Part shown: positions 3,099 to 21,346 of the stretch, piece after piece | Position numbering within the stretch: the first letter of the stretch is position 1 | Layout of the letters: the number at the start of each line of letters is the position of its first letter | NCBI GenBank assembly: GCA_027491395.1 | Contig: JAOZFI010000009.1 | Span: forward strand, 1 to 21,346 | DNA length: 21,346 nucleotides | Direction: 5' to 3' | Source: Thermoproteota archaeon | GTDB lineage: Archaea; Korarchaeota; Korarchaeia; Korarchaeales; Korarchaeaceae | Translations under genes and position numbers: made by a program | The notes under the pieces: generated by a model | Told to the model about the DNA's origin: nothing | Database searches by the model: none | The model's input: the letters and a program-made list of their open reading frames with translations, nothing else

Positions 3099-3099
3099 T

Positions 3100-3126
3100 C
3101 CCCTCTTCTCCCATCTTTTTTACTTT
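3100..3126 (+). terminator. Oligo-T/pyrimidine tract after dppA (partial terminator or processing site)
   Basis: Pyrimidine-rich tract with T6 at 3116-3121, directly after the dppA stop; archaeal terminators are oligo-T. Confidence 0.5.
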
Positions 3127-3164
3127 GTGACTCTTACTGCCCTGATCCATGGGGTGATGTTCTC

Positions 3165-4199
3165 TTGGGAAGTTTAGCCACCTATATCGCCCGGAGATTA
3201 CTCCTAATAATACCCACGCTACTCGGCGTCTCCATACTCATCTTCGCCATATCCATGGTCTTCACCCCTGAGCAGAGGGCCGCTCTCTATGTGACGTCGC
3301 CTAAAGCGGCTTCCAAAATTTACCAGATCATAAAGAAGTACGGGCTGGACAGGCCAGCCCACGAGCAGTACTTCACTTGGCTATCGAATGTCCTTAGGGG
3401 AAATCTGGGCTACTCTAAATCCATGAACATACCAGTCATAAGGGCATTCACCGATCTATGGCCGACCTCGGTGGAGATCGCCATATACGCGGCTCCGTTC
3501 ATAGTACTCGTCGGGGTGAAGCTGGGAAAGATATCAGCCATATACAGGGATAAGCTACCCGATCACATAGCTAGGGTGCTAGCTATCGTGGGATGGTCCC
3601 TGCCTACATTCTGGTCCGCTATCATACTCCTAGCAATATTCTACGGCTGGCTGGGGTGGTTCCCTCCGGGGAGACTCGGGCCCGAGGCCCAAGCCATAGT
3701 CAGGTCGAGCGAGTGGGTCACCTACACTGGCCTGTACACGATAGATGCCCTGCTCAACGGTAACCTGTTTGTCTTCATAGATGCGGTGAGGCATCTCTTC
3801 CTCCCAGTCCTCAACTTGGTCATAGTGGGTAACGCCGGGATAATGAGGGTCATGAGATCCAGCATGCTGGAGGAGCTGAACAAGGAGTACGTCCTCGCCG
3901 CCAGGTCGAAGGGCGTAGCTGAAAGGGACATAATCAACAAGCATGTGACCAGAAACGCCCTTATACCCGTGGTGACCATGGCTGGTGTGTTGGTCGCTGG
4001 ACTGATGACCGGGCTGGTGATAACCGAGACCGTGTTCGAGCTCAAGGGTCTCGGATACTGGGCTGCCCACGCGGCCGAGCAGCTGGATATACCCTCAGTC
4101 TTGGCCTTCGCCCTATTCACTGGTGTGGTCTTCGTGATCGCTAACCTCATCGTGGACGTCCTATACGCCTACATAGACCCGAGAGTGAGGCTCCAGTGA
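3165..4199 (+). CDS. dppB: Peptide ABC transporter permease, 344 aa (TTG start)
   Basis: YIARRLL start, YGLDRP...QY, GNLGYS, EAA-loop equivalent EYVLAARSKG, DPRVR end; RBS GGGGTGA at 3151-3157. Confidence 0.95.
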   Translation: MGSLATYIARRLLLIIPTLLGVSILIFAISMVFTPEQRAALYVTSPKAASKIYQIIKKYGLDRPAHEQYFTWLSNVLRGNLGYSKSMNIPVIRAFTDLWPTSVEIAIYAAPFIVLVGVKLGKISAIYRDKLPDHIARVLAIVGWSLPTFWSAIILLAIFYGWLGWFPPGRLGPEAQAIVRSSEWVTYTGLYTIDALLNGNLFVFIDAVRHLFLPVLNLVIVGNAGIMRVMRSSMLEELNKEYVLAARSKGVAERDIINKHVTRNALIPVVTMAGVLVAGLMTGLVITETVFELKGLGYWAAHAAEQLDIPSVLAFALFTGVVFVIANLIVDVLYAYIDPRVRLQ

Positions 4200-4218
4200 A
4201 GGTTAGGGTGAGTGAAAA

Positions 4219-5154
4219 ATGAGTGTTGCGAAAGAGGTGAAGAAGGTACCCCTCTCCGAGAGGATCTGGTTTAAAGAGCTTAAATTCATGGCTAAGAGGG
4301 TCAGGGAGAGCCCATTATCCTTGGCCGGACTGGCCATAATATTCTTTTACGTGGTGCTGGCCATCCTGGCCCCTTACCTAGCCCCTCCTAAACCGGGAAG
4401 GGATCCCTTCGAGATACCTAGGTACGGTTACGTGATAACGCCCTCCCCTCCCAGTCCGGAGCATCCGTTCGGCCTAACTCAGGGACAGTACGACCTCTTC
4501 TACGGGTGCATCTGGGGGACAGTGACTGCTTTCAGGGTCGGACTGCTGGGAGTGTCTGGCTCCATTCTGATCGGCCTGACCGTGGGTGCTATAGCGGGAT
4601 ACTTCGGCGGTAAGATAGACGAGATCCTCATGAGGATAGTGGACATCGTCTACGCGATTCCCGGCCTAATATTAGCCATGGCTTTCGTCCTCGCGCTCGG
4701 TCAGAGCTTGGACAACGTGATAATAGCCCTGATGCTGGTAGGATGGGCCACCTACGCGAGGCTAACGAGGGCGGGCGTTCTCCAAGTCAAGCAGGAGGAT
4801 TACGTGGAGGCCGCTAGGGCCATAGGCTCTCCACACAGGAGGATACTGCTGAGACACATCCTCCCCAATAGCATATTCCCCGTCTTCGTGGTGGCAACGC
4901 TGGACATAGGTTCAATGGTACTCACCGCCTCCGCCCTGAGCTTCTTGGGCATTGGTGCCCCACTGGGATACGCTGATTGGGGACAGCTGATCGCTCTCTC
5001 CAGGAACTGGCTCATAGGGACTCCAGAGAATCCGTTCGAGTACTGGTACACCTACACGTACCCGGGCATATTCATCTTCACCTTCGTGCTGGGCTGGAAC
5101 CTTCTGGGCGATGCCTTCAGGGACATACTCGATCCCACTCTGAGGAGGAGGTGA
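4219..5154 (+). CDS. dppC: Peptide ABC transporter permease, 311 aa
   Basis: PSPEHPFG, DYVEAARAIG, HILPN, LSFLGIG, NLLGDAFRDILDP. Confidence 0.95.
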   Translation: MSVAKEVKKVPLSERIWFKELKFMAKRVRESPLSLAGLAIIFFYVVLAILAPYLAPPKPGRDPFEIPRYGYVITPSPPSPEHPFGLTQGQYDLFYGCIWGTVTAFRVGLLGVSGSILIGLTVGAIAGYFGGKIDEILMRIVDIVYAIPGLILAMAFVLALGQSLDNVIIALMLVGWATYARLTRAGVLQVKQEDYVEAARAIGSPHRRILLRHILPNSIFPVFVVATLDIGSMVLTASALSFLGIGAPLGYADWGQLIALSRNWLIGTPENPFEYWYTYTYPGIFIFTFVLGWNLLGDAFRDILDPTLRRR

Positions 5155-5158
5155 TCCC

Positions 5159-6325
5159 ATGACTGAGAGGAATGAGGGGAACATAATGGAGGTGAGGGAC
5201 CTCTATGTGAGGTTCTACACCTACGAGGGTGTGGTCAAGGCGGTGGACGGCGTGGACTTGGATGTCCTTAGGGGAGAGACCTTGGGGATAGTGGGAGAGA
5301 CCGGCAGCGGCAAGTCAGTTACCACCTATGCCATGATGAACATGGTCCCACCTCCAGGCAGGATAACTAGGGGCAGGGTGGTCTACAGGAGGGATGGGAA
5401 GGAGTTCGTCCTCACAGAGATGCCGGAGAGCGAGATAAGGAAACTCAGGGGATCTGATATCTCTAGGATATTCCAGGAGCCTAAAGCCGCCCTCAATCCG
5501 GTGTACAAGGTTGGGGATCAGGTCGCAGAGGCGATCCTCATACACAGGCTGGACGAGATGAAGGAGAGGGCGCTGGAGACCCTGAAGAGTGAAAGGGGCG
5601 TATTTCCCTCCCTCAGCAGATCCGTGATTGATAGGTCCCTGAAGTTCGAGGGTGATCCCCTCGTCAGGCTCTTGAAGAGGATACCCCTTCTGAGGAGGCT
5701 CTACTGGAAGCCCATAAAGCGCGAGGCTAGGAAGGAGGTGGTGAAGCTTCTGGGCTTGATGGGGATACCCGATCCGGATAGGGTGTATGACATGTACCCG
5801 CACGAGCTCAGCGGGGGCATGCAGCAGAGGATAGTGATAGCAACAGCGCTCTCCTGCAATCCTCAGCTTCTCATAGCCGATGAACCAACTACAAACTTGG
5901 ATGTCACGGTGGAGGCCCAGATACTTGAGTTGATGAAGGATCTTAAGAAGAAATTCGGGATGACGCTGCTCTACATAACCCACGACATGGGAGTCATCGC
6001 CGAGATGTCCGATCGGGTAGCTGTGATGTACGCAGGCAACATAGTTGAGGTTGGTGACGTCATCACGATATTCAAGAAGCCCCTCCATCCCTACACGAAG
6101 GGCCTTCTGGAAGCTATCCCTATGCCAGGGAGGCCGTTGAAAGACATACCGGGCACCGTGCCGAATCTAATAAACCCCCCATCTGGGTGTCGCTTCCATC
6201 CGAGGTGCGAGTATGCGATGGATAGATGCAAGAGGGAGAAACCGAAGCTGGTAGAGGTTGAACCCGGGCATTGGGTCGCTTGCTTCCTTCACCACGACCA
6301 AGCGGCGGAGGTGGAAGAGGGATGA
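5159..6325 (+). CDS. dppD: Peptide ABC transporter ATP-binding protein, 388 aa
   Basis: Walker A GETGSGKS, signature LSGGMQQR, Walker B LIADEPT, HPY, C-terminal CRFHPRC..C..C cluster. Confidence 0.95.
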   Translation: MTERNEGNIMEVRDLYVRFYTYEGVVKAVDGVDLDVLRGETLGIVGETGSGKSVTTYAMMNMVPPPGRITRGRVVYRRDGKEFVLTEMPESEIRKLRGSDISRIFQEPKAALNPVYKVGDQVAEAILIHRLDEMKERALETLKSERGVFPSLSRSVIDRSLKFEGDPLVRLLKRIPLLRRLYWKPIKREARKEVVKLLGLMGIPDPDRVYDMYPHELSGGMQQRIVIATALSCNPQLLIADEPTTNLDVTVEAQILELMKDLKKKFGMTLLYITHDMGVIAEMSDRVAVMYAGNIVEVGDVITIFKKPLHPYTKGLLEAIPMPGRPLKDIPGTVPNLINPPSGCRFHPRCEYAMDRCKREKPKLVEVEPGHWVACFLHHDQAAEVEEG

Positions 6326-7413
6326 TCTCCTTGGATCACAAAGAGTGGCTTTCCAAGACCGAGGGATCCCTCATCAGAACATACAGGTTGAAAAAGCATT
6401 TTCCAGTCTTGGGCGGCATCCTGAAAAGACCAGTAGCATGGGTCAAGGCCGTCGATGGCGTGGACATGTGGGTCAAGAAGGGGGAGACCCTAGGTCTCGT
6501 CGGGGAATCCGGATGCGGAAAGACCACCTTGGGAAAGACCCTTATAAGGCTGCTGGATCCAACCTCAGGACACATATTCTACGACGTGCCCGAGGACGTG
6601 ATAAAGGAGATTTTGGAGCTCGAAAGTTCAGGAGACAAGTCGAGGCTAAAGGAGCTCAGGAGGAGATACGATCTAGCTTACATGAAAGGGAAGCAGCTGA
6701 AGGAATTTAGGAGGAAGATGCAGATAGTGTTTCAGAATCCCCTCACGGCCCTCAACCCCAGGATGATGGTGAAGGATATAGTGGCCGAGCCCCTCATAGT
6801 CCAGAAGATAGCAAAGGGAGAGGAGGCATACGACATGGCCCTTCAGGCGCTTCAAGAAGTGGGACTCGGGAAGGAGCACATGTGGAGATACCCACATGAG
6901 TTCTCCGGAGGGCAGAGACAGAGGATAGCCATAGCTAGGGCCCTGGTGCTGAAGCCGGACTTCATAGTTCTGGACGAGCCCACATCAGCCGTTGACGTGT
7001 CGGTGAGGGCTAGGCTTCTGAAGCTCTTCAAGGAGCTGCAGAGCAAGTACGGGCTCACGTACCTGTTCATCAGCCACGACCTATCGCAGGTGCAGGTCAT
7101 CAGCGACAGGGTGGCCGTCATGTACTTGGGCAAGATAGTGGAGCTCGCCGATACTAGGGAGATATTCGAGAACCCGATGCATCCCTACACCCAGGCGCTC
7201 TTTTCAGCCAAGCCCGTGCCTGATCCGACAGTCAGGAAGGGGAGGATAGTCTTGAAAGGGGATGTCCCAAGCCCGGTCAATCCGCCGTCCGGGTGTCGCT
7301 TCCACCCGAGGTGCTTCAAAGTCTTCGGGCCGTGTGACAGGGAGGAACCTCCCTTGGTGGAGGTGAAGCCGGGCCACTGGGTAGCCTGCCACCTATACGG
7401 GGAATCTTCATGA
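6322..7413 (+). CDS. dppF: Peptide ABC transporter ATP-binding protein, 363 aa (start moved from 6271)
   Basis: ATG 6322 overlaps the dppD TGA (ATGA); GESGCGKT, FSGGQRQR, VLDEPT, HPY, CRFHPRC..C..C. Confidence 0.93.
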   Translation: MISLDHKEWLSKTEGSLIRTYRLKKHFPVLGGILKRPVAWVKAVDGVDMWVKKGETLGLVGESGCGKTTLGKTLIRLLDPTSGHIFYDVPEDVIKEILELESSGDKSRLKELRRRYDLAYMKGKQLKEFRRKMQIVFQNPLTALNPRMMVKDIVAEPLIVQKIAKGEEAYDMALQALQEVGLGKEHMWRYPHEFSGGQRQRIAIARALVLKPDFIVLDEPTSAVDVSVRARLLKLFKELQSKYGLTYLFISHDLSQVQVISDRVAVMYLGKIVELADTREIFENPMHPYTQALFSAKPVPDPTVRKGRIVLKGDVPSPVNPPSGCRFHPRCFKVFGPCDREEPPLVEVKPGHWVACHLYGESS

Positions 7414-9701: not shown

Positions 9702-10115
9702 TCATTCGAGCGTCAAGCCGCTGATGCGGAGCTTGCCCTCTTTCTCCAGCTCGTGAATCCTTTCAACGACCTTGTATATAGAGAGGTTTGCTTCCTTAGC
9801 TAGCTCATATGGGGATATTCGCCCGCTCTCCTTGGCCGCATTTATAATAATCCTACCCAAATCATCGTCCACGCGCTCGTCTAGCACTTCGATGATCAGT
9901 TCGTATCGAGCCCTCTTATACCTAGGCTCGGAGATGTATATGGCTAAGGAGAGCAGCGCCGATGATATGACCGCCGCTGCGATCGCCGAGTAGAATGTAA
10001 ATGTGGACATTATCGACCTGTACATGAGTGTCAGGAAGATCTCCATCGTGAGGATGGTCAAGCCCCAAGTGGCAGCGACTAGGGCCTTTCTCCTAGTCCA
10101 TACCCGTGGGACCAT
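9702..10115 (-). CDS. Membrane protein with two TM helices and a C-terminal Lrp/AsnC-type winged HTH, 137 aa (start moved from 10181)
   Basis: RBS GGAGGTGA (containing the giant gene's TGA) lies 5 nt before ATG 10115; two hydrophobic segments; DDLGRIIINAAKESGRISPYELAKEANLS...VVERIHELEKEG matches the AsnC HTH pattern. Confidence 0.75.
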   Translation of the reverse strand: MVPRVWTRRKALVAATWGLTILTMEIFLTLMYRSIMSTFTFYSAIAAAVISSALLSLAIYISEPRYKRARYELIIEVLDERVDDDLGRIIINAAKESGRISPYELAKEANLSIYKVVERIHELEKEGKLRISGLTLE

Positions 10116-10120
10116 TGCGA

Positions 10121-13100
10121 TCACCTCCTCTCTTGAGGAGGTCTGGCACCACCCAGCAGGAGGAGCTCGGCAGCCTCCCAAAGATCGAGCCCTGAGTTCT
10201 TGGCCACCTCCAAGGATCTCATAACAAGATCCTCATCCAACACCCGCACATGCAGACTACCGCTAGAAATCAGCTTCTCAACCATGGAAGAGACGGCTGG
10301 GTCGCTTAGAGCCTTGGATGCGGTGGCTTCCGAGATAACCAGCCCGAAAGAGGGCAGATCCCCCCGATCTATCAAGTCCCTGAGTGCGGAGTAGTCTATC
10401 AGCATTGCCTTCCTCCTCCTGAAGATAATAAAAAGTAATATCAGTAGGGACATCGGCATACTAATCATGCCCAGTACGGACTCTCTCATGAGCCCTCTCA
10501 ACTCTAGGGTCGCGCTGGATTCTGGACCGCCTGGGATTCTCGCCCTGTTGGTTAGAGTTCCCCCGAAGATCCACCTCGGATAGCGGGCTACTATGAAAAC
10601 GACGGCAGCACCATCCCGCGCGGAAATGCGGACCTCCCTTCCCTCTATTGAGATGTCCACCCTCTCATGCGAGAGAACCTCCTCTATCTCCATTCCCTCG
10701 GGTAGCTCGTCAACCGCTGTGCTCCCTCTAGGACCCCTTATCCTGAGGATGTACTCCACCAGCCCCCTCCCGGAGTAAATGCCCACCTTTTGCAGGTGCA
10801 CCTCCTCCTCAGGGGGCTTCACCACTATCGTGGACGAGGCGGTCAGGTTCCCCAAGTAGGCCCTGTTGGCCCAAGAGCCTACGCGAGACGCCTTGAATAC
10901 GAAGCTGAAGCTGCGGGATTCGCCCGCACTAAGCTTGTCTATCCTCCATGAAATCCGCCTACCTCTGATTCCCCTACCTAGTAGTGGCACGAGTCCCTCC
11001 GTCGGCTCATCGATGATCAACAGCTCCCTAGCCGTCACATTCCCGGTATTGGTCACCGTTATCCAGCAAACTACCGGATCGCCGACTTCGACCTCGGTGG
11101 GTGAGCAGGTCTTGCTCAGAGAGAGGTTGGCCACGAGCTCGCTGCTGACATTTAAAGGAGAAGTAGCCTTAATCTCGGTTCCTTGAATTCGCTCCTCACC
11201 TCTTCCTTCTCCTGGCGTCATAGGAGCACCCGACGGGCCTTCTGTCGTGATGTTCGGTGTAGGTACCGCGCGGGTCACCGTCATGTTGACTGGCCTCCTC
11301 CCGGTCGTGACGGAGCCCTCACAACGGATGACCGGCTCCCTCAGAATTGCCGCGGACTCGAATCCCCCTCCCACCTTGGTCATGAATGATAGATTACCTC
11401 CCAGCATGGAGAGACCCGTGAAATTCGCTACAATGTAGTAAGAGGGAAATTCGCTTGCCGGACTATCAAGGTGGGCTGGGGAGCTCCAGGAGCTACCTGG
11501 GCCGATTATTGCTCCGGGGTTCTCGCAGAAGACGAGTCTACCAGATTCGGGCTCTCCCTCGTACACACAGATGCTGGTCAGGTTGTAAGAGAGGTCCCCT
11601 GCCCTGTTAGAGAAACTGGCGGAGATGGAGTAGCCCCCGTCAACCCTCTCCTTAACTATGTTGATAGAGGCGGGCCCCACGTACCTCATCTCACCTATGA
11701 GATCTAGGAGGGGTGGATGGGAGCCCCTAATCCTGACCCTTGCGTCGGGGATATGCAGATCCTCTACTACCTCAACCGCGAGAGTCAGACTGAGGGTAGC
11801 CGCATCACCCGAGTGTAGTGGTCCGAGGCGCCACCTAACCACACCACCATCCAAGTCGACGGTACCTGTGGTGGCAGCTGCCCTGATAACAGAGGATGCC
11901 CAGCTTACGGGCTTCATGACCTCGACCTCATCCACATCTCGGGTTGACTCCAGCCTGATACTCAGCTCCACCTCTCTGACCCCACCACAGTTGATCGTTT
12001 GCGGTGTCAGCTCCTCCTCCAGCGTGATGGGAGGCGTGACATCCTTCGGAGCGGTGAAGCGCCACCTAACGTACTCTCCCGGTCCCACCCTCTCCGCCCT
12101 CAGAGGAGGTTCTTCCGCTATCGTCGACGGTACTGGATAATCTGGGTAGAACTCGTAACTAGGGGCGTGAATTGGGATGCGAACGTCGGAGATCTCGTCC
12201 CCCTTAGGATTGATAAGGGTCAGGAAGCCCCAATGCTCTCTCACAACGTAACTCCCGTTATAGTGGAATAATACGTCTAGGAACTCGTCAATCTTTACCT
12301 CTGGCATGCCCGGAGGATCCACACCCACGATGAGGGCTTTTGAGAGCTGAAAATCTGAGGAACCACAGTCAAGTGAGGTCAGCGTGTAGGTGATGGATCT
12401 GGTGCCCTCAGGGGAACCTGACGGCCCCAGCGTCAGGAACCACCAATAAACGCCCCCTGAACTTCCTTGGGGAGTCTCGCTCGGCGATGTCAGGACCATG
12501 CCATCAGGGACCGCATCGTAGACCTTGATGGTGGTCGACCACGGATTTAGATTGCTCGCAGTCAAGATCACTGACAGGCTGCAATCGGACAACGGTTCTA
12601 TGTCCTTCTTGATGGACACGCTCACTGGTTTCTTCTTCACAGCCGGGCCGAACTCGCTGCTACCAATCCCGTTCTTGTACAGAAGGGCGGTGAGTGCGCT
12701 CGAACCATCCGGCTCGGCCCAGTCCGGAAGGGATGACAGATCTAGCATACCCGAGAATTCCCCGTTAGGATCGGTTTCGAGCTTACCCAAGTAGATCCAG
12801 CCCTCCCCGTAAAGCTTGGCGAGCTGTGAGTCACCCGAATAGTCGTTACCTATTAGGTCATCTCCCCCATCCGTGTTATTCACAAGGAACACTAGCACCT
12901 CAGCGTCAGAGAAGGTTGGGCTCCCCTCATACAGATCCTCCCTGTTGACATATCCCTCGACGTAAAGCGTATCGGAAACTGGGTCGTAGCTGAAGTCCGT
13001 TATTATGGGGTAGTCTACACCCTGATTCGGCAGTTCCGGCCTCAGAATCCCGTCGTTGACGGTCACATTGTCCCCCACCGGTTGGGATGGGTGAGTGGTA

Positions 13101-16100
13101 TCGAGGTCAATGCCCACTTCTCCGTTAGAGAATATGGAGTTAACCAGAATGGAGTTATTCACGCTCACCTCGGAACCGCCTGACCAGTTGGCGATGACAA
13201 CACCCGGCCCAGCATTTTCGTAGATAACACTGGCGTTCAGCAGAGTGCCATTACCGAATATCCTGATGCCCCCATCTTCTCCCTGATCAGCCACTACGCC
13301 ATTTCCACTGACGTTAACTTCCTCAATCACATTTCCTCCTATCCCATTCCAGCTGTCGAAACCGTATGCGGCGTTATCATGTATGTAGGAGCACCTCAGG
13401 ATGACACCCCCGGCCCCCTCCTCGACCGATACGCCGTCCTCTAGGCCGTTGACCAACCCGTTGGAGAAGACCTCAACACCCTCGATCGTACCCTCGAAGG
13501 GTCCCCCCTCCACATGAATCCCGGTGTAGCCATTGTAGGCGACTAGGCTGGATGTCACGTTGAAGCTGGGCCCACCCGACGAGTTAACCTCGATTCCCTC
13601 AGCACCATTCCTCGCGAGTCCGTAGGTGGAGGGATCATCGCCATTCGATGTGAGCCCCACTAGAAGCTGTGAGAGCGATATGTTCCCCATACTACCGGTT
13701 CCGTTCAAGACTAGGGCACCGCCCGGATAACTGGAGCCGAACCCGTAGAGGGAGATCCGGCTGACCCACGTGTTACTCGCATTTATCACTATCCCACTAC
13801 CATCCAGTCCATTGCCGTATATCTCCAGTTCCGGCTTCTCGACTCCTCCCAGCGTGCATTCATCACCGGTCCCGGGTATCCCATCCGGACCAGTCCCCAC
13901 CCTTCCAATGGATCCGACCACGCCGGGATTGGAGTTCCTGACTGCCATGTTCGGGTAGAACACCGTCCCGTTTAGCGAGGCCCCAGCTGAATCGTTGAAG
14001 GACGGAAGCTGGCCCAAGGTGTGATTGATCTCTATCCTCCACGATCCGGCGTAGGCCACATTAGGGTCGACCATCATCACGAAGTAGCTCCTCTGATATC
14101 CCTTCACAGCGTTCGCGTTAACTATGAATTGTCTCAGGCTACCCTGAGCATACTTCAGTTCGTTAGTCTTGGCGTAGATGGAACCGGGACGTTCGAAGAC
14201 CCAGTAGGCGACCTGTTCCGTGGTATGCCTCCTCTCAGAATCTGAAAGCGTGTCCTTATCGATGGCTAGGTGAAGCTCGTTAGTTATGGGATCGTCGCCG
14301 AAAAGAACAGCCCATCCACCATAAGTTCCGTCCATCGCGCTCTGAGTAACCACTCCCACCGTGAAGGTCCCACTCAGGCTGTAAACGTAGGGAGGGGAAT
14401 CACCCACCCCTTGAACGGTGTCTGGTCCAAGCTGAGCCTCGTAGCCCAAGCCCCCGGTCGATCCCTTACCGGCCTCCACTATCACGACACCTAGCAGCTC
14501 GTCACTCCTGTAAGTGACGGGATCCTCGCCGACGTGTTTGCCAACGTAAAGGTTGCTGGAGTCAGGTGGTTCCGTCCTATCGCCGTTGCTATCCCAGAAC
14601 ACTGACCACCTGCTGTCGTTGTAACTCATTACCTGACCTAGGACCACAGGGGATGTGTATGCCCAGACGTAAGGGACATGCTCCATGAGAGAAGCATCCC
14701 AGTTGTTGTTGTCGTTGGTTCCGTGTGATACCACTCTGTGCGCCTCTACCTTCCTCCCATCATCGAGTTCCCAGCTTCCCTCCTCCATCACGAGGCAGTG
14801 GACATCTCTAGGGGTGACGGGCTTCCCGGATGGATTCTGTATCCTCACCTTGAAGGAGTAATGGGAGACATCCTTTATCCTGACTACTGCCTCGTTGTCA
14901 GAGCTGCTCGGAAGGTTGTGGGTGCACACAACGACCGGGCTCTCATAGAAGTGGTGGGTGAAAACGGGTACCCATGAGCTCCCGACGTTTTGGAGCTTGA
15001 ACACTTCTCCAATGGCCTTTACCGGGTTTTTCATTCTATCTAGAGTGTTAACCACCACCTCGTAGCTGAAGCCGAAGTCCAAGCTCTCTCCTGAGTATAT
15101 GGATGGATCTACCTCGACATAGTGCTCAGGTTGGCCATTCTCCATATCACCCATATTTGGATCTTTGCCCCCAAAGCTCTGAACTAGGGTCCACGAGCTT
15201 CCATCCCACTCCCTGTGGAAGGTCTCCTCTGCCCAGACATCGTCCCAAGTATAGCCCGGATTTAATCCCCTCACCGAGATGATGGTACTGGAGTCTACCA
15301 CCACGTAGACCTTACCATTGTGTACGGAGTGGAGAACGTACCTACCGGAGGAATCCGTTATCTCGGAGTCTATGATCTTATCACCGAAATCGAAGACACC
15401 ATCGCCGTCATCTCTGTATAAGAGGATTCTCACATTCGGGATGCCCACATCATCGGAATCGAGGGCGCCTAGAACACCAAAGTCCTCATACACTCTACCC
15501 TGAATCGGCCAACTGACGTATATAGTTACGTTTTGGGGGTGGGTTACGCCATTAGTCTCTACGGCCCTCACCTCCACGGTGTAAATCCCGAAATCGCTAA
15601 GAGAGAACTGGTACCTGTAGATCCTCCAGAAGGGAGGGGATCCAGGATCCTCGGATATGAGACCCATATTGTCTGTCAGGATGAGGTTATCGCTCTGATC
15701 GAATACATTTATCACCACATCAGATATGTCGTAGGCTCCAATGGGATCAGTCACATTTGCGGTGACTGTGATGGTGTCACCGGGGGAGTAATCCTCGCTG
15801 TCGGTTTCCACTTGGGCCACCTTGATGTATGTGAAGGTGCTCACCTCAACCTTGGAGGGATGCGAGCTGTCGTGAGCTATATAGAGAGGATACGGGGCTT
15901 GGTTCTTTATCCTCAAGACTAGATAGCTGCCCTTCGGAATGGACACTTGGTTGGTCAGCGGCATGGTGAACGAGTAGGGGCTTGAGGAGGGGTTCAGAGT
16001 GACCATCTGCTCCACGCTACCTATGACCGTAACGGAGTCGCCGTCTGTGTATAAGAGGTCAATCACCACGTCATGGTCCTCGTAGAAATAGAAATAGCTC

Positions 16101-19100
16101 CTCAAGTAGAGGGTTACCGTTACATCCCCCGAGATAACGAACTCACCCGAAAAAGGAGGACTTTGAGTCCAAGAATCCAGCGAGTTGGACAGGATTGTAG
16201 TCTCGCTGCTGGACACTGTGGGTACGGTCGTGTTGAGGGTGTGATCAGCGTCACCATGGAGATAGAACTGTTTCTCCACATTACCGGGATGTATGGTGTC
16301 CGTGTAAAGAGATACCGTGTCGTACACGGCGGTGTCGCTGATCTTGGTGAAGTTCAATTCGGTGAGATCGACCTCGCCCATCGGCGCCGTGGACGGCACT
16401 ATCTTCCTCACGGTCAAATTGGTCTCTCCAAGCGGTAAGAGGAGGTCTGGGAGACCATTTCCGTTCGAATCGTATCCTATAGCGATGAAATCCCATATGC
16501 CATCGCCATCCGAGTCCTCGGCTATTAGGGTGTCGCCTTCGTAAAGCTCAGTGGCCCATCCCTTCGTGGACTGAATTATGCTAACGTCGAACCTCTCCTC
16601 CTCATCGTAATTGTATGCGGTAACATTGTACTCTGCCTCACTTCCCGGGTACACCTTCTCCTCCTGATCCGGTTCTACGGAAAACGTGGTGACATAGATA
16701 ACTATACTCTTGGCATCATTCGAAGTGTTCTGATCGCCTGGAAGTTCGGAGCTCACAGTGATGTTGTAAGCTCCGGGTGATAGGGAGACCACGTCTAGGG
16801 AGAAGCTGACCTGAGCCGTCTCGTTGTGGGGGACGTAAAGACTCACGTACTTTGTTTGGGTAGATGAGTAGCCTCCTCCAATCTTCTCCACTGCCATCTT
16901 TATGGGAACGTCCTCTTCATCGACTATCCCGTACAGGGCAGCGGTGGCGTTGATCCATATGGTGCTATTAACGTGGGGATTCACTCTACTTCCATTCTCC
17001 GGAGTATCTATGCTTTTTATCCCTACATCGTGCAGCTGTGAAAGTCCGTCGTTGATCTGATCAAGCATGTCGTTCATATCGTACCCTAGGCCCCAGATCA
17101 CCGGTACAACCCAGACCTCTCCGGGGGCTAGAGAATCTCTATCCCAAGCCAAGGCTGTACCAGCGTCTCCCTCATAGCTGGACGAGTTGGTGAGCCTGTC
17201 GTATAGGATGTCCGTCCACACGGTTCCGTAGTGCCCCACTTCGTGGAGGGAGCTGGGCTGTTCCGCCCTGAAACCACCGTACTCTATATCTCCGGGGGGA
17301 GCGTTACTATCATATCCATACACCACATCGTTAGACGAATCGTAGTAAGAGTCATCATCATAGTAGTCTCCATTGAAGTTCCAGTCCATGCCTTGGAAGA
17401 ACCTCAGATTCGTGTACGTATTGGAAGTCGGATTCCTCAGGTAGTAGATGGTGGCAAACCACCTCTTATTATCCCTTATTATAGTCTTCTGGGTTATGTT
17501 CAACTCATATCCGCTCCACTGGGCCTGCATCTCCGTTATTATGACGCTCTCCAGCATACCATTAGGAACAGTGTTTGCCGAGACATTCTCCCTGCTTATC
17601 TCGGTGAGAAAGTAGTTGCCCGTCCAATAGAAATCCCCATCATTCCCGTACTGCCTGGTTCCACCATCTGTAGTGTACCTGACGGCTATCTTCGAACCAG
17701 CGTCCGCATCTATGTCATTAGCCCAGTTGTCCTCCGTTCTACCAGCATGGTCATAACTGGCGATTGTGGAGGAGCTATCTCCCTGAGAATAGGGGAATAC
17801 TATGGCTGAGAGCTGACCTGCCTCCACCTCCTCTATGGCCACGGAATTGTTCGGGCCTGGGGGTATGAGCGTGATGTCGTAACCGGTAATAGGATCATCG
17901 AAAAAGTAAAGAACTCCATCGTCAACGTACCACCTGATCTCCCCTTCCACCTCCCCCGTTGACCTGTTCACCTTGATGTCATTCACTATGACCCTCCCAT
18001 CGTCCCCCACTATCTTACCCACCCTGTATCCTTGGGGGATCTTCACGGAGAACCTGTAATTTATCTCGAGCTTGCCCTTGACCCCCAGCCTTATTACAGT
18101 CTCGTTCACTCGCCTCGATGTGATAACAGTATTGAGAACCTCCCCAGGGAGACCAAACCTTCTTAACAGTTCTGATGTAGCTGGCAGCTCATATTCCGAG
18201 ATATTTAACCTCCCTATCCGCCTTACTACCTTTTTCAGGGCTTTAATCCCCATGGAAAGCATTTTCACGACCAGCTTATCTGGTGAAGGAGATCTGACAA
18301 CTATCCTCCTAGATACGGGATCGTAGGCCACGGAGAAGCCTTCCCCCCTGTGGGGTCCCGCCGATGGCCAACTCTTTGATCCCTTTATCGTCAGGGAGAG
18401 GGAGAATGTCCTTCCCCAGGCGGTTAGCAGTACACTATGCACCCCCTCCGAGAGGATCACGGGTATGATGAAGTTCCCATTATCCAGACTCGTATTTCCC
18501 CCCACCCCATCGACCTCGTAAGACAGGAAGGGGGGAGGGAGTATCTGGTACTCTACGCGTCCTACTATGCCTTTATCCTCCTCATAGGTGAGCTCGAACT
18601 CGTAACAATCCACAACGAAGTGATCCTCTACGCCATCTACTTCAACACTGTAATTGCCAAGCAGCACGCTGGAATTGAGCGGGTAGGTCGATTCCCAATG
18701 ATCCCCAGATCTCTCGAATACCAGAGGTACGATCCTACCTTCTGGATCCACAAGGCTGGCGGAGCTGGGCTTGAATCGAGCCCTGACGACAACCATATCT
18801 CCCGGGAAGTACACCTCCCTCTCCAACTCCACTCCTCTATCCATTAGCGGCAACGAGAGCTGAGAACTACCGCATCTCAACTCGACTTCACGCTCATCGG
18901 GAGGCACGGATATGATGAAGGTCCCATTAACTACCTCTGCAGCCCCTTCCAAGCCGCTGGAGAATCTGTACCTGACCTCCTTGGGAGGGACGAAGTAGTA
19001 GGAGACCGTTCCTCTGACGAACCCATCTCGGTAGCTGGCGTTCAGCTCGTAATAGTCAACGTAGAAGTCTGCTGTCGAGTTTCCGAGGGAGACCCTGTAA

Positions 19101-19858
19101 AGTCCCAGCATTACTGAGGAGTTCAGAGGTAAGCTAGCTGTCCATGCATCACCCGAATGATTCAGTGGGAGGGCAATGGTCCTATTGTCAGGAAGGATGA
19201 CCGTGAGCTCCTCTTGAGTTGGGGGGATCGAGGTCACCCTGACGACAACCACATCTCCCGGGAAGTACACCTCCCTCTCCAGCTCTATCATCCCGTGTTG
19301 GGTTTCAGGGTTCACCTCACTCATCTCATGCACTGACACCTCTTCAACGAGTTCTCCGGTCAGGTTCCCGCTGGTAGCCACTATTTTGAGGGTGTAATTG
19401 CCCGTAGGGAGATTAAAAGGCTCTGTACTTCCTACTGAGGTCAAATACATGTCACCTTCTGGGGTTACGACAGTCACGTTCGCTGAGAGTGGGGAGCCTG
19501 TTAGCTCTGAGAAAGTACTGACTACGAACCCTCCACCCCCCTTCCTGAGCTCAACATCTATCCTGTCGAGAACAAAGGAGTAGCTTCCATCGGTCCAAGT
19601 AATTTTGTATGTGCCTAGGGGAAGGGAGCTGGTGTTCAGGATCAAGACATCACCAGCCCAAGAAGCGAATTCGGGTGGGGAAGAGAGATCGATGGTATAT
19701 ATCGTGCCGTTAGGGAAGACCAAGTTGACAGGGGTTTCAGGAATCTTAACCTCTAATCGAAGCCCGGGAGAGATGACCACCGGAGCACCCGAGACTATGA
19801 GATGAGGGAAGGCGACCTGGATCGCGAGCAGTACGAGAAGGAAGGCCGCCCCCCTCAT
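10121..19858 (-). CDS. Giant multidomain cell-surface adhesin-like protein, 3245 aa
   Basis: Uninterrupted ORF; signal peptide; Ig/MG2-like repeats (YFPGD); CARDB-like, SdrD-B-like and lectin-like segments; parallel beta-helix; DUF11-like domains; TM plus RRRK; about 95-aa cytoplasmic tail; many N-x-S/T sequons; RBS GGAGGT overlapping the upstream stop. Confidence 0.9.
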   Translation of the reverse strand: MRGAAFLLVLLAIQVAFPHLIVSGAPVVISPGLRLEVKIPETPVNLVFPNGTIYTIDLSSPPEFASWAGDVLILNTSSLPLGTYKITWTDGSYSFVLDRIDVELRKGGGGFVVSTFSELTGSPLSANVTVVTPEGDMYLTSVGSTEPFNLPTGNYTLKIVATSGNLTGELVEEVSVHEMSEVNPETQHGMIELEREVYFPGDVVVVRVTSIPPTQEELTVILPDNRTIALPLNHSGDAWTASLPLNSSVMLGLYRVSLGNSTADFYVDYYELNASYRDGFVRGTVSYYFVPPKEVRYRFSSGLEGAAEVVNGTFIISVPPDEREVELRCGSSQLSLPLMDRGVELEREVYFPGDMVVVRARFKPSSASLVDPEGRIVPLVFERSGDHWESTYPLNSSVLLGNYSVEVDGVEDHFVVDCYEFELTYEEDKGIVGRVEYQILPPPFLSYEVDGVGGNTSLDNGNFIIPVILSEGVHSVLLTAWGRTFSLSLTIKGSKSWPSAGPHRGEGFSVAYDPVSRRIVVRSPSPDKLVVKMLSMGIKALKKVVRRIGRLNISEYELPATSELLRRFGLPGEVLNTVITSRRVNETVIRLGVKGKLEINYRFSVKIPQGYRVGKIVGDDGRVIVNDIKVNRSTGEVEGEIRWYVDDGVLYFFDDPITGYDITLIPPGPNNSVAIEEVEAGQLSAIVFPYSQGDSSSTIASYDHAGRTEDNWANDIDADAGSKIAVRYTTDGGTRQYGNDGDFYWTGNYFLTEISRENVSANTVPNGMLESVIITEMQAQWSGYELNITQKTIIRDNKRWFATIYYLRNPTSNTYTNLRFFQGMDWNFNGDYYDDDSYYDSSNDVVYGYDSNAPPGDIEYGGFRAEQPSSLHEVGHYGTVWTDILYDRLTNSSSYEGDAGTALAWDRDSLAPGEVWVVPVIWGLGYDMNDMLDQINDGLSQLHDVGIKSIDTPENGSRVNPHVNSTIWINATAALYGIVDEEDVPIKMAVEKIGGGYSSTQTKYVSLYVPHNETAQVSFSLDVVSLSPGAYNITVSSELPGDQNTSNDAKSIVIYVTTFSVEPDQEEKVYPGSEAEYNVTAYNYDEEERFDVSIIQSTKGWATELYEGDTLIAEDSDGDGIWDFIAIGYDSNGNGLPDLLLPLGETNLTVRKIVPSTAPMGEVDLTELNFTKISDTAVYDTVSLYTDTIHPGNVEKQFYLHGDADHTLNTTVPTVSSSETTILSNSLDSWTQSPPFSGEFVISGDVTVTLYLRSYFYFYEDHDVVIDLLYTDGDSVTVIGSVEQMVTLNPSSSPYSFTMPLTNQVSIPKGSYLVLRIKNQAPYPLYIAHDSSHPSKVEVSTFTYIKVAQVETDSEDYSPGDTITVTANVTDPIGAYDISDVVINVFDQSDNLILTDNMGLISEDPGSPPFWRIYRYQFSLSDFGIYTVEVRAVETNGVTHPQNVTIYVSWPIQGRVYEDFGVLGALDSDDVGIPNVRILLYRDDGDGVFDFGDKIIDSEITDSSGRYVLHSVHNGKVYVVVDSSTIISVRGLNPGYTWDDVWAEETFHREWDGSSWTLVQSFGGKDPNMGDMENGQPEHYVEVDPSIYSGESLDFGFSYEVVVNTLDRMKNPVKAIGEVFKLQNVGSSWVPVFTHHFYESPVVVCTHNLPSSSDNEAVVRIKDVSHYSFKVRIQNPSGKPVTPRDVHCLVMEEGSWELDDGRKVEAHRVVSHGTNDNNNWDASLMEHVPYVWAYTSPVVLGQVMSYNDSRWSVFWDSNGDRTEPPDSSNLYVGKHVGEDPVTYRSDELLGVVIVEAGKGSTGGLGYEAQLGPDTVQGVGDSPPYVYSLSGTFTVGVVTQSAMDGTYGGWAVLFGDDPITNELHLAIDKDTLSDSERRHTTEQVAYWVFERPGSIYAKTNELKYAQGSLRQFIVNANAVKGYQRSYFVMMVDPNVAYAGSWRIEINHTLGQLPSFNDSAGASLNGTVFYPNMAVRNSNPGVVGSIGRVGTGPDGIPGTGDECTLGGVEKPELEIYGNGLDGSGIVINASNTWVSRISLYGFGSSYPGGALVLNGTGSMGNISLSQLLVGLTSNGDDPSTYGLARNGAEGIEVNSSGGPSFNVTSSLVAYNGYTGIHVEGGPFEGTIEGVEVFSNGLVNGLEDGVSVEEGAGGVILRCSYIHDNAAYGFDSWNGIGGNVIEEVNVSGNGVVADQGEDGGIRIFGNGTLLNASVIYENAGPGVVIANWSGGSEVSVNNSILVNSIFSNGEVGIDLDTTHPSQPVGDNVTVNDGILRPELPNQGVDYPIITDFSYDPVSDTLYVEGYVNREDLYEGSPTFSDAEVLVFLVNNTDGGDDLIGNDYSGDSQLAKLYGEGWIYLGKLETDPNGEFSGMLDLSSLPDWAEPDGSSALTALLYKNGIGSSEFGPAVKKKPVSVSIKKDIEPLSDCSLSVILTASNLNPWSTTIKVYDAVPDGMVLTSPSETPQGSSGGVYWWFLTLGPSGSPEGTRSITYTLTSLDCGSSDFQLSKALIVGVDPPGMPEVKIDEFLDVLFHYNGSYVVREHWGFLTLINPKGDEISDVRIPIHAPSYEFYPDYPVPSTIAEEPPLRAERVGPGEYVRWRFTAPKDVTPPITLEEELTPQTINCGGVREVELSIRLESTRDVDEVEVMKPVSWASSVIRAAATTGTVDLDGGVVRWRLGPLHSGDAATLSLTLAVEVVEDLHIPDARVRIRGSHPPLLDLIGEMRYVGPASINIVKERVDGGYSISASFSNRAGDLSYNLTSICVYEGEPESGRLVFCENPGAIIGPGSSWSSPAHLDSPASEFPSYYIVANFTGLSMLGGNLSFMTKVGGGFESAAILREPVIRCEGSVTTGRRPVNMTVTRAVPTPNITTEGPSGAPMTPGEGRGEERIQGTEIKATSPLNVSSELVANLSLSKTCSPTEVEVGDPVVCWITVTNTGNVTARELLIIDEPTEGLVPLLGRGIRGRRISWRIDKLSAGESRSFSFVFKASRVGSWANRAYLGNLTASSTIVVKPPEEEVHLQKVGIYSGRGLVEYILRIRGPRGSTAVDELPEGMEIEEVLSHERVDISIEGREVRISARDGAAVVFIVARYPRWIFGGTLTNRARIPGGPESSATLELRGLMRESVLGMISMPMSLLILLFIIFRRRKAMLIDYSALRDLIDRGDLPSFGLVISEATASKALSDPAVSSMVEKLISSGSLHVRVLDEDLVMRSLEVAKNSGLDLWEAAELLLLGGARPPQERR
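18781..19285. repeat. 49-bp direct repeat pair (18781-18829 and 19237-19285), 47/49 identical, marking a 152-aa tandem duplication
   Basis: CCCTGACGACAACCAYATCTCCCGGGAAGTACACCTCCCTCTCCARCTC occurs twice, 456 bp apart; both copies encode ELEREVYFPGD(V/M)VVVR. Confidence 0.9.
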
Positions 19859-20609: not shown

Positions 20610-20628
20610 CGGGGGATTCACCCTGATT

Positions 20629-20653: not shown

Positions 20654-21346
20654 TCAGGAGCCCATGAGCATGCTGTGATGCCCCGCTCCTCTCCTCGATC
20701 GCCTTCTGATTTCCATCACCGCCTCGGCAGATATGAGCACTACGGCTAGGAGAAACATCCACGGCTCTATGTTGAATGAGGTGACTCTCATTCCCGTGAA
20801 GGGTGTGAACACAGAGTTGACATCTAAGGTGTTTCTTGGGTCCACACCGACCACGAAGATGTCCGTCACATTGTAGTCACCGCTTCCCAGAACGCAATAG
20901 TGCACGAAAACTGGATTATAGACGTCTATGTCTAAGTTGTCGTAGTGTCCCTTGGCGGTCACTACAACGTAGCCCCCACCGGTAGCGACTGAGTCCTGTA
21001 CGAACTCAACCTTGAAGTAGGTGTCTGCAGCGTCGTCAGATGAATCGGCAAGGAACTCCCCTCCCTCGGCGTAGCTGGTGGAGTTTATGCTCACTGTGCT
21101 GGCATCTATCACCTGCACGTCCCAGTCCCTAGTGCTGCCATCCTTCATGGTGACCGTGATGGTCTTGGTTATGCTGGTGTCTGGGAACCACTCGGCGAAC
21201 CCGCGCTGGACCGGCAGCGGGTAGACCTTCCAGACGTAACCCTTGGTGTACCCTGACGGGCTGGTTATCAGAGAGTAGTCCGGTGGACTGCTGGGGTTGG
21301 CGTCCTGAGCTAGCATGTTCAGAGGGTAGAGCTTCATGTTACCCTC
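20654..21346 (-). CDS. C-terminal part (at least 230 aa) of a membrane-anchored surface protein, probably truncated by the window edge
   Basis: Frame is open to the window end (GAG GGT AAC before ATG 21337) and there is no signal peptide at that Met; the C-terminus has VGVDP, EPW, a TM helix and RRRSRR. Confidence 0.85.
   Translation of the reverse strand, partial: EGNMKLYPLNMLAQDANPSSPPDYSLITSPSGYTKGYVWKVYPLPVQRGFAEWFPDTSITKTITVTMKDGSTRDWDVQVIDASTVSINSTSYAEGGEFLADSSDDAADTYFKVEFVQDSVATGGGYVVVTAKGHYDNLDIDVYNPVFVHYCVLGSGDYNVTDIFVVGVDPRNTLDVNSVFTPFTGMRVTSFNIEPWMFLLAVVLISAEAVMEIRRRSRRGAGHHSMLMGS

What the first reader, a model, noticed from the sequence alone, without database searches (positions are those of the whole stretch)
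12314..12355. Shared 14-residue VGVDP motif: SpyTag-like reactive strand or Asp-Pro self-cleavage site
Seen: the giant protein has DFQLSKALIVGVDP (12314-12355) and the right-edge protein has DYNVTDIFVVGVDP (20837-20878). Both follow an h-x-Y strand (ITYTL / VHYCV) and an earlier G-x-x-W strand. In the giant protein the domain has the CnaB-type Lys (VSIKK) and acid (VYDAVP) but no last-strand Asn; ALIVGVDP takes that place and resembles SpyTag AHIVMVDA, whose Asp forms a Lys-Asp isopeptide. Alternatively, Asp-Pro bonds autocleave to a reactive anhydride that cross-links (mucin GDPH, FrpC). Either route could give sortase-independent covalent polymerisation or release from the anchor.
Basis: partly seen in the sequence, partly recalled or inferred. 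Interest (0 to 1): 0.8.

Follow-up and report, generated by a model that had tools for sequence, protein, structure and literature searches.

The report
Conserved GxDP end of surface domain
The shared VGVDP is the conserved last strand of an Ig-like domain in giant archaeal surface proteins and marks the exact point where related archaea split the protein into two genes; no tested feature supports a SpyTag-like bond, and self-cleavage is untested.

Summary
Both peptides are present, on the minus strand: a 3245-aa surface protein (aa 2502-2515) and a contig-truncated neighbour. The pairwise match alone is at chance level. The motif is nevertheless real. G-[VIL]-D-P is kept in 52 of 54 distinct homologous domains and in 6 of 6 members of the small family, and a bridging protein shows the two domains are homologous.

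The domain is a divergent CnaA-like (DUF11/"CLIPPER"-related) beta-sandwich, and GxDP is its final strand. However, Lys and acid are present together (22 domains) or absent together (32 domains), while Asp-Pro is kept in both groups. A Lys-Asp bond therefore does not explain the motif.

The new result is that GxDP marks a gene fission/fusion point. In Archaeoglobales and Methanococcales the protein stops 0-13 residues after DP. A separate gene with its own signal peptide encodes the membrane-anchored remainder. The window's giant is the fused form.

Most likely GxDP is a structural end-cap at a module junction. Asp-Pro cleavage or "clip-and-link" chemistry is not excluded and not tested.

The parts
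10121..19858 (-). Giant surface protein P0001, 3245 aa. It is a fusion of an 'A' module (aa 1-2515) and a membrane-anchored 'B' module (aa 2516-3245). It has a signal peptide (aa 1-25) and 59 N-x-S/T sequons.
   Evidence: homologs of 3234-3287 aa
12314..12658 (-). Terminal domain of the A module, aa 2401-2515: invariant SEFGP linker followed by a ~105-aa CnaA-like beta-sandwich ending in GVDP.
   Evidence: Alignment A1; profile search; AF2 models; VIA alignments ending at the motif; no hit in the held Pfam copy
12314..12325 (-). G2512-V2513-D2514-P2515, the conserved motif. It is the last beta-strand of the domain and the A/B junction.
12605..12607 (-). K2418, first-strand Lys (profile position 18). 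It is the counterpart of the CLIPPER isopeptide Lys.
   Evidence: paper PMC12617251 passages
12515..12517 (-). D2448 of V-Y-D-x-x-P-x-G (profile position 48). It is the counterpart of the CLIPPER catalytic Asp and covaries perfectly with K2418.
   Evidence: K+D 22, non-K+W 32, mixed 0
12341..12343 (-). S2506, at the profile position where canonical DUF11 repeats have the isopeptide Asn (N-T-A). None of the 54 domains has Asn here.
10124..12313 (-). B module, aa 2516-3245. It comprises a short linker, an Ig-like domain starting at I-D-E-F (aa 2523), further domains including a canonical DUF11 (aa 2912-3002), a TM helix (aa 3128-3146), RRRK, and a ~95-aa cytoplasmic tail.
20654..21346 (-). P0002 (230 aa, N-terminus cut by the contig end). 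It carries the same domain type with a large insertion, then GVDP (aa 167-170, window 20837-20848), RNTLD plus a ~25-aa spacer, a TM helix (aa 196-213) and RRRSRR.

Best explanation
G-[VIL]-D-P is the conserved final beta-strand and end-cap of a ~105-residue CnaA-like (DUF11/CLIPPER-related) beta-sandwich. This sandwich is the last domain of the large outer 'A' module of a two-module archaeal surface protein.

After Asp-Pro the chain does one of three things:
- It stops. A and the membrane-anchored B module are then separate genes (Archaeoglobales, Methanococcales, one Korarchaeota genome).
- It enters a spacer plus a C-terminal membrane helix (the P0002 family, P0141).
- It runs straight on into B (the window's 3245-aa fusion).

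The motif's role is structural. It closes the sandwich and fixes the junction where A meets B. It is not a reactive or scissile site.

Shown here: conservation, homology, position of the motif in the predicted fold, and the fission/fusion. Inferred: the structural role, and that separate A and B proteins assemble head-to-tail.
For: 1. Conservation. G[VIL]DP occurs in 52 of 54 distinct domains. Six rows of canonical DUF11 repeats from P0017 (x2), P0025, P0066, P0110 and P0120 were dropped from the original 60. The small family has it in 6 of 6 members.

2. Position in the fold. In the AF2 model of a split-form C-terminus (29-row alignment, mean pLDDT 87.7) the last 20 residues score 85-87 and read as a helix followed by the strand V-G-V-D-P. 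All structural alignments to complete sandwiches run to the last residue. For 9ifr_A (CLIPPER), Z is 9.8, rmsd 3.4, 101 residues aligned, model 119-220 against chain 18-125. For 6to1_A, Z is 11.1. In the fused model they end at residue 240, which is P2516.

3. Relation to DUF11. The domain profile's strongest outside hits are DUF11 repeat proteins; 8 of 8 scanned carry 10-39 PF01345 stretches. In canonical repeats an Asp-Pro follows the Asn strand in 38% of 541 N[TS]A sites. A D-P at this place is therefore an inherited feature of the fold, including in tandem repeats.

4. Independence from the Lys/acid pair. K18+D48 occurs in 22 domains, non-K+W48 in 32, and mixed states in none. D-P is kept in both groups, and Asn is absent at the canonical position in all 54.

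5. Fission/fusion.
- 27 of 54 domains end 0-13 aa after D-P.
- Stop codons were read in the DNA of 8 loci.
- In L037 and L031 the next gene has a signal peptide and then I-x-E-Y...F-Y-P-N-G.
- That gene aligns collinearly with the giant's post-DP part: hhalign E 2.2e-5, gene-2 residues 3-271 against post-DP residues 8-323.
- The other 5 of 5 split-form genomes also hold a B homolog, E 7.8e-15 to 2.2e-3.
- L017 and L025/P0049 carry a TM helix, a basic patch and a signal-like helix inserted exactly after D-P.

6. D-P is not avoided in this genome: observed/expected is 1.49 in ORFs of at least 200 aa.
Against: - Pro is kept even when it is the last or next-to-last residue of the protein (P0070, P0041 and L035 end in ...DP). 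A plain strand end would seem not to need this.
- The only substitution seen at the Asp is Asn (GINP in L033). Asn keeps the side-chain cyclisation chemistry.
- In the model of the window's own fused protein the motif segment (aa 2501-2517) has pLDDT below 50.
- No experiment bears on cleavage or cross-linking.
- All family members found come from thermophiles or hyperthermophiles, where Asp-Pro hydrolysis is fastest (established chemistry, recalled).
Confidence: 0.6

Rival explanations
1. Asp-Pro autocleavage. In fused proteins such as the window's giant, the D2514-P2515 bond breaks spontaneously or with help from the fold at high temperature. This yields the same two chains (A and B) that other archaea encode separately, and in the P0002 family it releases the ectodomain from its anchor.
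For: - D and P are near-invariant.
- The gene fission point coincides exactly with the D-P bond.
- The one Asp substitution is Asn.
- Hosts are thermophiles by the record titles.
- Precedents exist in GDPH and FrpC (search listing and start of abstracts only).
Against: - D-P is equally conserved where only 0-2 residues follow it, so cleavage there would achieve nothing.
- There is no vWD domain, no His after D-P and no self-processing module.
- The motif is modelled as a beta-strand inside the sandwich.
- D-P dipeptides are over-represented in this proteome, not avoided.
- Canonical tandem DUF11 repeats often carry D-P at this place.
Confidence: 0.15
2. Clip-and-link. The C-terminal Asp-Pro of module A forms an Asp anhydride, releasing Pro plus the short tail. 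The anhydride is captured by an amine or hydroxyl of module B or of the envelope, which tethers the anchorless A chain covalently.
For: - Split-form A proteins have no membrane anchor, yet keep D-P with variable, unconserved tails of 0-13 aa. That pattern fits a leaving group.
- The C-terminus of A and the mature N-terminus of B must lie close together, because fusions join them with 3-9 residues.
- Three of the 5 B homologs read have Cys within the first two residues after the predicted signal-peptide cleavage site (L031, L037, L040); L044 has it just before the site and P0174 has none.
- FrpC is a precedent (listing).
Against: - There is no direct evidence.
- No Ca-binding self-processing module is present.
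- The B N-terminal Cys is not universal (P0174 has none).
- Fused forms keep D-P although they need no ligation.
Confidence: 0.07
3. SpyTag-like isopeptide. In the Lys/acid-bearing subgroup (the window's giant and P0002), K2418 bonds D2514 with D2448 as catalyst, either in cis or by strand exchange between molecules.
For: - K2418 and D2448 are strictly co-conserved in 22 domains.
- The fold is that of isopeptide domains.
- The canonical Asn is missing, and D2514 is the only invariant acid in the last segment.
Against: - D-P is just as invariant in the 32 domains that have lost both Lys and acid.
- By profile alignment and spacing the canonical Asn site is S2506, eight residues before D2514 (triad spacing from the Table 1 passage of PMC12617251).
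- The K/D to I/W swap looks like a buried salt bridge exchanged for a hydrophobic pair.
- According to the passages read from that paper, CnaA-like domains typically form Lys-Asn bonds, and Lys-Asp is named only for CnaB-like domains.
Confidence: 0.04
4. GxDP is a recognition site for a dedicated processing or sorting enzyme. That enzyme would be a protease or transpeptidase acting at the end of the last ectodomain, whatever anchor follows.
For: - The motif sits before three different kinds of C-terminal continuation, a 'choice of anchor' pattern.
- In P0049/L025 it lies 8 residues before a TM helix plus RRKK, which resembles a sorting signal.
Against: - The spacer to the TM helix varies from 8 to about 27 residues, or is absent.
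- The motif is part of the folded domain.
- No candidate enzyme gene was identified in the window; the flanking ORFs get no Pfam family.
Confidence: 0.06

Closest known systems
CLIPPER / DUF11 (PF01345) intramolecular-isopeptide domain; structure PDB 9IFR (Protein Sci 2025, PMC12617251; passages read)
   Same: - CnaA-like beta-sandwich: VIA Z 9.8 over the whole domain.
- Shared sequence features: the V-x-D-x-x-P-x-G motif, a first-strand Lys and an acid in the window's copy, and often a D-P after the Asn strand.
- The domain profile retrieves DUF11 repeat proteins.
- Found in long archaeal and bacterial surface proteins.
   Different: - No Pfam DUF11 hit for this domain, even at E up to 10.
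- The isopeptide Asn is absent in 0 of 54 cases present; position 106 is mostly Ser.
- Lys and acid are lost together in 32 of 54 domains.
- It occurs once per protein as the terminal domain of a module rather than as a tandem stalk repeat.
- It ends in an invariant G-x-D-P.
SpyTag/SpyCatcher (CnaB2 domain of FbaB) Lys-Asp isopeptide
   Same: Superficial likeness of ALIVGVDP to the tag. A hydrophobic strand ends in Asp, and a Lys lies on the first strand. This comparison is recalled and was not tested here.
   Different: - The fold class here is CnaA-like rather than CnaB.
- The candidate catalyst is Asp, not Glu.
- The Asp is conserved independently of any Lys.
Asp-Pro self-processing: GDPH in vWD domains (MUC2, FCGBP) and the FrpC self-processing module (PMC8267560, PMC7078468; search listing and start of abstracts only)
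   Same: An invariant Asp-Pro bond in a secreted or surface protein. The cleavage chemistry would be available, especially at high temperature.
   Different: - No vWD domain, no His after D-P, and no Ca-dependent module after the bond.
- The sequence after D-P is not conserved and may be absent.
Two-component archaeal envelope proteins such as Sulfolobales SlaA/SlaB (own knowledge, not tested here)
   Same: A large outer subunit without a membrane anchor is paired with a smaller subunit that has a C-terminal transmembrane helix.
   Different: - No sequence relationship was tested.
- Here the two parts are fused into one chain in Korarchaeota.
- The B part also has a conserved cytoplasmic tail.

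Membership tests
CLIPPER / DUF11 (PF01345) isopeptide domain | CnaA-like Ig beta-sandwich fold | tested here: met
   VIA wide search: 9ifr_A Z 9.8, rmsd 3.4, 101 residues aligned, model 119-220 against chain 18-125. CnaA-type pilins score Z 8.4-11.1. These are tied with unrelated sandwiches (A2M receptor-binding domain, mu2 adaptin, CBM2) at Z 9.9-10.6.
CLIPPER / DUF11 (PF01345) isopeptide domain | Match to the Pfam model above its gathering score | tested here: not met
   The domain scanned alone gives 0 families at E up to 10. The giant's DUF11 hit lies at aa 2912-3002. Remote homology is seen only through my own profile.
CLIPPER / DUF11 (PF01345) isopeptide domain | Lys on the first strand | tested here: met
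   K2418 is present in the window. Across the family it is present in 22 of 54 domains.
CLIPPER / DUF11 (PF01345) isopeptide domain | Catalytic Asp (V-x-D-x-x-P) | tested here: met
   D2448 is present in the window. It is present in the same 22 of 54 domains and is Trp in the other 32.
CLIPPER / DUF11 (PF01345) isopeptide domain | Asn on the penultimate strand that bonds the Lys | tested here: not met
   Profile position 106, which aligns with the N of N-T-A in canonical repeats, is Ser in the window. It is never Asn in the 54 domains.
SpyTag-type Lys-Asp isopeptide (CnaB2) | Asp partner whose conservation is tied to a Lys and a catalytic acid nearby | tested here: not met
   D-P is invariant in the 32 domains that lack both Lys and acid. 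The distance from K2418 to D2514 could not be measured because no coordinates were given.
GDPH / vWD autocleavage | vWD domain and G-D-P-H | tested here: not met
   No vWD hit. The residue after D-P is Pro in 24 rows and a gap (chain end or unaligned) in 24 of the 60 rows. His is not among the residues listed there or in the tails.
FrpC-type self-processing module | Conserved Ca-dependent module directly after the Asp-Pro bond | tested here: not met
   What follows D-P is a stop codon, a TM helix or an Ig-like domain. No such family was found.
Autocatalytic cleavage or cross-linking of any kind | Observed cleavage, -18 Da mass shift or SDS-resistant adduct | not testable with these tools
   This needs protein chemistry.

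The most novel reading that the evidence does not exclude
The invariant C-terminal Asp-Pro is a built-in acyl-activation site. In split systems the anchorless giant A chain sheds Pro plus a throw-away tail of 0-13 residues, forming an Asp anhydride. It then ligates itself to the mature N-terminus, a Lys or a glycan of the membrane-anchored B chain. This would be a sortase-independent, heat-driven 'clip-and-link' anchoring of archaeal surface proteins. Korarchaeota would have replaced it by gene fusion.
Probability: 0.07. Interest if true: 0.85.

Novelty: new variant of a known kind. Interest (0 to 1): 0.4.

Why it matters
This defines an unannotated variant of the DUF11/CLIPPER isopeptide-domain superfamily. 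The variant has lost the cross-link Asn and serves as the terminal domain of giant surface proteins in thermophilic archaea (Korarchaeota, Archaeoglobales, Methanococcales).

The G-x-D-P end gives a precise marker for a gene fission/fusion. Because of it, the window's 3245-aa protein can be read as a fusion of an outer module and a membrane-anchored stalk module that other archaea encode separately. That helps annotate these otherwise uncharacterised envelope proteins.

It also points to a testable question. How is an anchorless 1700-2900-residue chain held on a stalk through an end-to-end junction, and does the invariant Asp-Pro take part chemically? If it does, it would be a new heat-compatible protein-ligation handle. 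If it does not, the motif is an ordinary structural cap.

Tried and rejected
- **Complex prediction.** I submitted the split-form A C-terminus (A5) with the B N-terminus (A6). The result was 'no answer' (scores 0.21, 0.37, 0.11 against a mark of 0.32). It is not used for or against binding.
- **Donor-strand complementation.** I considered that the domain lacks a last strand that B supplies. I rejected this because all structural alignments to complete sandwiches, including CLIPPER 9ifr_A, run to the final residue, and the split-form domain models confidently on its own.
- **Frameshift or recoding at the stop after D-P.** The other frames downstream in L011 do not encode the B domain.
- **HMM of the giants' post-DP region against gene 2.** Only E 0.043. 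Profile-profile comparison was needed.
- **Searches that gave nothing specific.**
  - Foldseek against the PDB with the three-domain model gave only generic multi-Ig hits.
  - Sequence searches of solved structures found nothing.
  - The ESM Atlas gave only weak leads, scores of 0.82 or less, to archaeal DUF11/CARDB clusters.
  - NCBIfam 'choice-of-anchor U' maps elsewhere in the homologs, not to this domain.
  - A homolog search with gene 2 returned only 2 proteins, probably swamped by its Pro/Thr-rich linker.
- **Literature.** Searches were DUF11+isopeptide, Asp-Pro autocatalysis, Korarchaeota surface proteins, Asp-Pro in hyperthermophiles and GVDP+archaea. None describes this motif or the split/fused pair.
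- **Not available.**
  - PF27408 and PF27409, precomputed labels on the small family, are not in the held Pfam copy, so their names are unknown to me.
  - Supplements of PMC12617251 were closed. Its Table S2 lists DUF11 domains without the bond signature and may already include relatives.
Full report
**1. Observation**

The two peptides exist, on the minus strand. Window 12314-12355 reads DFQLSKALIVGVDP and 20837-20878 reads DYNVTDIFVVGVDP. The plus strand gives nonsense.

The first peptide is aa 2502-2515 of a 3245-aa ORF at 10121-19858(-). The second is aa 157-170 of an ORF at 20654-21346(-), whose start is cut off by the contig end. The window is the whole contig C61 of a 1.72-Mb, 62-contig genome. 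Homolog names and the phylum-level search point to Korarchaeota.

As a bare pairwise match this is chance level:
- 51.9% of 2000 shuffles of the small protein share a 5-mer with the giant, and the real pair also shares TITVT.
- BLASTP gives E 0.073.
- VGVDP occurs five more times in the genome's six-frame translation.

**2. The motif is nevertheless real**

Every close homolog of the giant keeps it: 8 of 8 at 56-84% identity, plus the distant P0010. Every member of the small family does too: 6 of 6 read GVDPRNTLD.

I built a profile of the giant's domain (A1, aa 2401-2519). It found 316 proteins at E <= 1e-3 among 1.84 billion representatives.

I pooled these hits with orthologs from related genomes. 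The domain was hit in 19 of 41 relatives and in 23 of 43 genomes of the phylum. I also added loci from named genomes. After dropping six rows of ordinary DUF11 repeats, 54 distinct domain sequences remained:
- 52 read G[VIL]DP.
- One reads AIDP (P0041).
- One reads GVDL (P0060).
- A 55th, from a Methanothermococcus chromosome, was missed by my E-value filter and reads GINP.

The giant's domain and the small protein's domain are homologous:
- hhalign gives E 6.5e-5 over the first strands.
- P0141 bridges them. It matches the giant-domain profile (E 7.1e-8). It also matches small-family member P0014 in two collinear segments, E 8e-11 and 2e-6.
- The small family simply carries a large insertion between the two halves.

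**3. What the domain is**

The held Pfam and NCBIfam copies do not recognise it. The strongest outside hits of its profile, however, are DUF11 repeat proteins. All 8 I scanned carry 10-39 PF01345 stretches.

A 2025 paper (PMC12617251; I read passages, not the supplements) renames DUF11 'CLIPPER'. It shows by crystallography (PDB 9IFR) that the domain is a CnaA-like fold with a Lys-Asn isopeptide bond catalysed by an Asp. The residues are Lys715, Asp748 and Asn806. The Lys lies on the first strand and the Asn on the penultimate strand. The paper notes that some DUF11 domains lack these residues.

An AF2 model of a split-form C-terminus (29-row alignment) has mean pLDDT 87.7. Its last 20 residues score 85-87 and form a short helix followed by the strand V-G-V-D-P.

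An exhaustive structural comparison gives these matches:
- The Mfa5 pilin domain 6to1_A first, at Z 11.1.
- CLIPPER 9ifr_A at Z 9.8: rmsd 3.4, 101 residues, model 119-220 against chain 18-125.
- Many CnaA-type pilins at Z 8.4-9.4.
- Unrelated sandwiches (A2M receptor-binding domain, mu2 adaptin, CBM2) tied with these at similar Z.

All alignments reach the last residue. In the model of the window's own fused protein they stop at residue 240, which is P2516. GxDP is therefore the last strand of a complete sandwich.

The fused model is weaker: mean pLDDT 74.9, with the motif segment below 50. I do not read anything into that.

**4. The isopeptide reading**

K2418 and D2448 (V-Y-D-A-V-P) correspond to the CLIPPER Lys and Asp. 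The Asn position is S2506, which aligns with the N of N-T-A in canonical repeats.

Across the 54 domains the picture is as follows:
- Lys and Asp are both present in 22 domains.
- In 32 domains both are replaced, by Ile/Val/Leu and Trp.
- No domain shows a mixed state.
- Asn is never at the canonical position.
- D-P is kept in both groups.

The motif's conservation therefore does not depend on a Lys/acid pair. The K/D to I/W swap looks like a buried polar pair exchanged for a hydrophobic one.

A K2418-D2514 bond in the Lys-bearing subgroup cannot be strictly excluded, because I had no coordinates. Nothing requires it, and D2514 lies eight residues beyond the canonical site.

**5. The cleavage reading**

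The following points argue against a scissile role:
- None of the defining parts of known Asp-Pro self-processing systems is present: no vWD domain or His, and no module after the bond (precedents only from the listing).
- The motif is modelled as part of the fold.
- D-P is over-represented in this proteome, observed/expected 1.49.
- In canonical DUF11 repeats 38% of 541 N[TS]A sites are followed by D-P within 5-12 residues. A D-P here is an inherited trait of the fold, including in tandem repeats.

Points that keep the idea alive:
- Pro is retained even as the very last residue.
- The single Asp substitution is Asn.
- The hosts named in the records (Methanotorris, Methanothermococcus, Archaeoglobales) and Korarchaeota are known to me as thermophiles; this was not tested here.

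**6. The new finding: a fission/fusion point**

Of the 54 domains, 27 end 0-13 residues after D-P with unrelated tails. Stop codons were read in the DNA of 8 loci. These include proteins from Methanotorris igneus and Archaeoglobales.

In two Archaeoglobales loci, L037 and L031, the next gene on the same strand encodes:
- a signal peptide;
- then I-x-E-Y-R-x-x-x-F-Y-P-N-G;
- then Ig-like domains and a Pro/Thr stalk;
- then a TM helix, basic residues and a cytoplasmic domain.

This gene aligns collinearly with the giant's post-DP part from its eighth residue onward. hhalign gives E 2.2e-5, probability 76%, gene-2 residues 3-271 against post-DP residues 8-323. An HMM alone gave only E 0.043.

A B homolog also exists in the other 5 of 5 split-form genomes, E 7.8e-15 to 2.2e-3. 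In the two I read, the same N-terminal motif follows directly after a signal peptide. The same holds for P0174.

Two Korarchaeota lineages (L017; L025/P0049) have a TM helix, a basic patch and a signal-like helix inserted exactly after D-P in one ORF. One (L011) simply ends 13 residues after it.

The window's giant is therefore an A-B fusion, joined by P-G-M-P-E-V-K. The P0002 family is the same terminal domain followed by its own anchor.

**7. Verdict**

The best reading (about 0.6) is that GxDP is a structural end-cap of a CLIPPER-related domain that has lost its cross-link, and that it marks the A/B junction.

Rivals:
- Autocleavage in fused forms: 0.15.
- Clip-and-link tethering of anchorless A chains: 0.07.
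- A processing or sorting signal: 0.06.
- A SpyTag-like bond: 0.04.

A complex prediction for A and B gave no verdict. No paper found by my searches describes the motif or the split/fused pair.

Noticed in passing
window 10124-10420 (-), aa 3147-3245 of the giant; also genome contig C34:1148-5083 (-): After the TM helix the giant has a ~95-aa cytoplasmic tail with no Pfam hit. A similar tail follows the TM helix of a 1312-aa paralog on contig C34 (beta-helix, SEFGP, ordinary DUF11 repeats, no GxDP). The separate B proteins of Archaeoglobales and Methanothermococcus have it too. It is a conserved intracellular domain on surface proteins, of unknown function.
   Followed up: partly
window 19863-20621 (-) and 9702-10181 (-): The giant is flanked by two small membrane proteins. 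P0175 has a signal peptide, an ectodomain and a C-terminal TM helix plus RLRR. P0176 has two TM helices and a C-terminal region that looks like a winged helix. In L037 and L031 a small multi-TM protein likewise follows gene B. This may be a conserved surface-protein gene cluster.
   Followed up: no
L017 (G029) and L025 (G046) / P0049: In single ORFs, the sequence directly after GxDP is a TM helix, RRRK/RRKK and a second signal-peptide-like helix, after which the B-type domains continue. They look like read-through fusions of two genes that kept the anchor of the first and the signal peptide of the second.
   Followed up: partly
profile positions 18 and 48 of alignment A1 (K2418, D2448 in the window): There is perfect covariation across 54 domains: Lys+Asp in 22, aliphatic+Trp in 32, no mixed state. 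In 17 of the 22 Lys+Asp domains a Cys pair (C2426/C2498) is also present.
   Followed up: yes
window 1227-7413 (+): An oligopeptide/dipeptide ABC transporter operon: an SBP_bac_5 binding protein, two permeases and two ATPases with oligo_HPY tails. It is ordinary and unrelated to the finding.
   Followed up: no
L033 (Methanothermococcus chromosome), downstream of the A gene: The A gene, which ends in GINPN, is followed by an ORF resembling an IS200/IS605-type TnpB transposase. I judged this by eye from the translation. The B homolog lies about 2.5 kb upstream of A on the same strand.
   Followed up: no
giant protein aa 2282-2405, window 12644-13015 (-): The domain before the terminal domain starts with an invariant D-Y-P-[VI]-I. 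It contains an invariant Y-G-E-G-W-I-Y-L-G and ends in an invariant S-E-F-G-P linker. The whole two-domain unit after the beta-helix is conserved from Korarchaeota to Methanococcales.
   Followed up: partly
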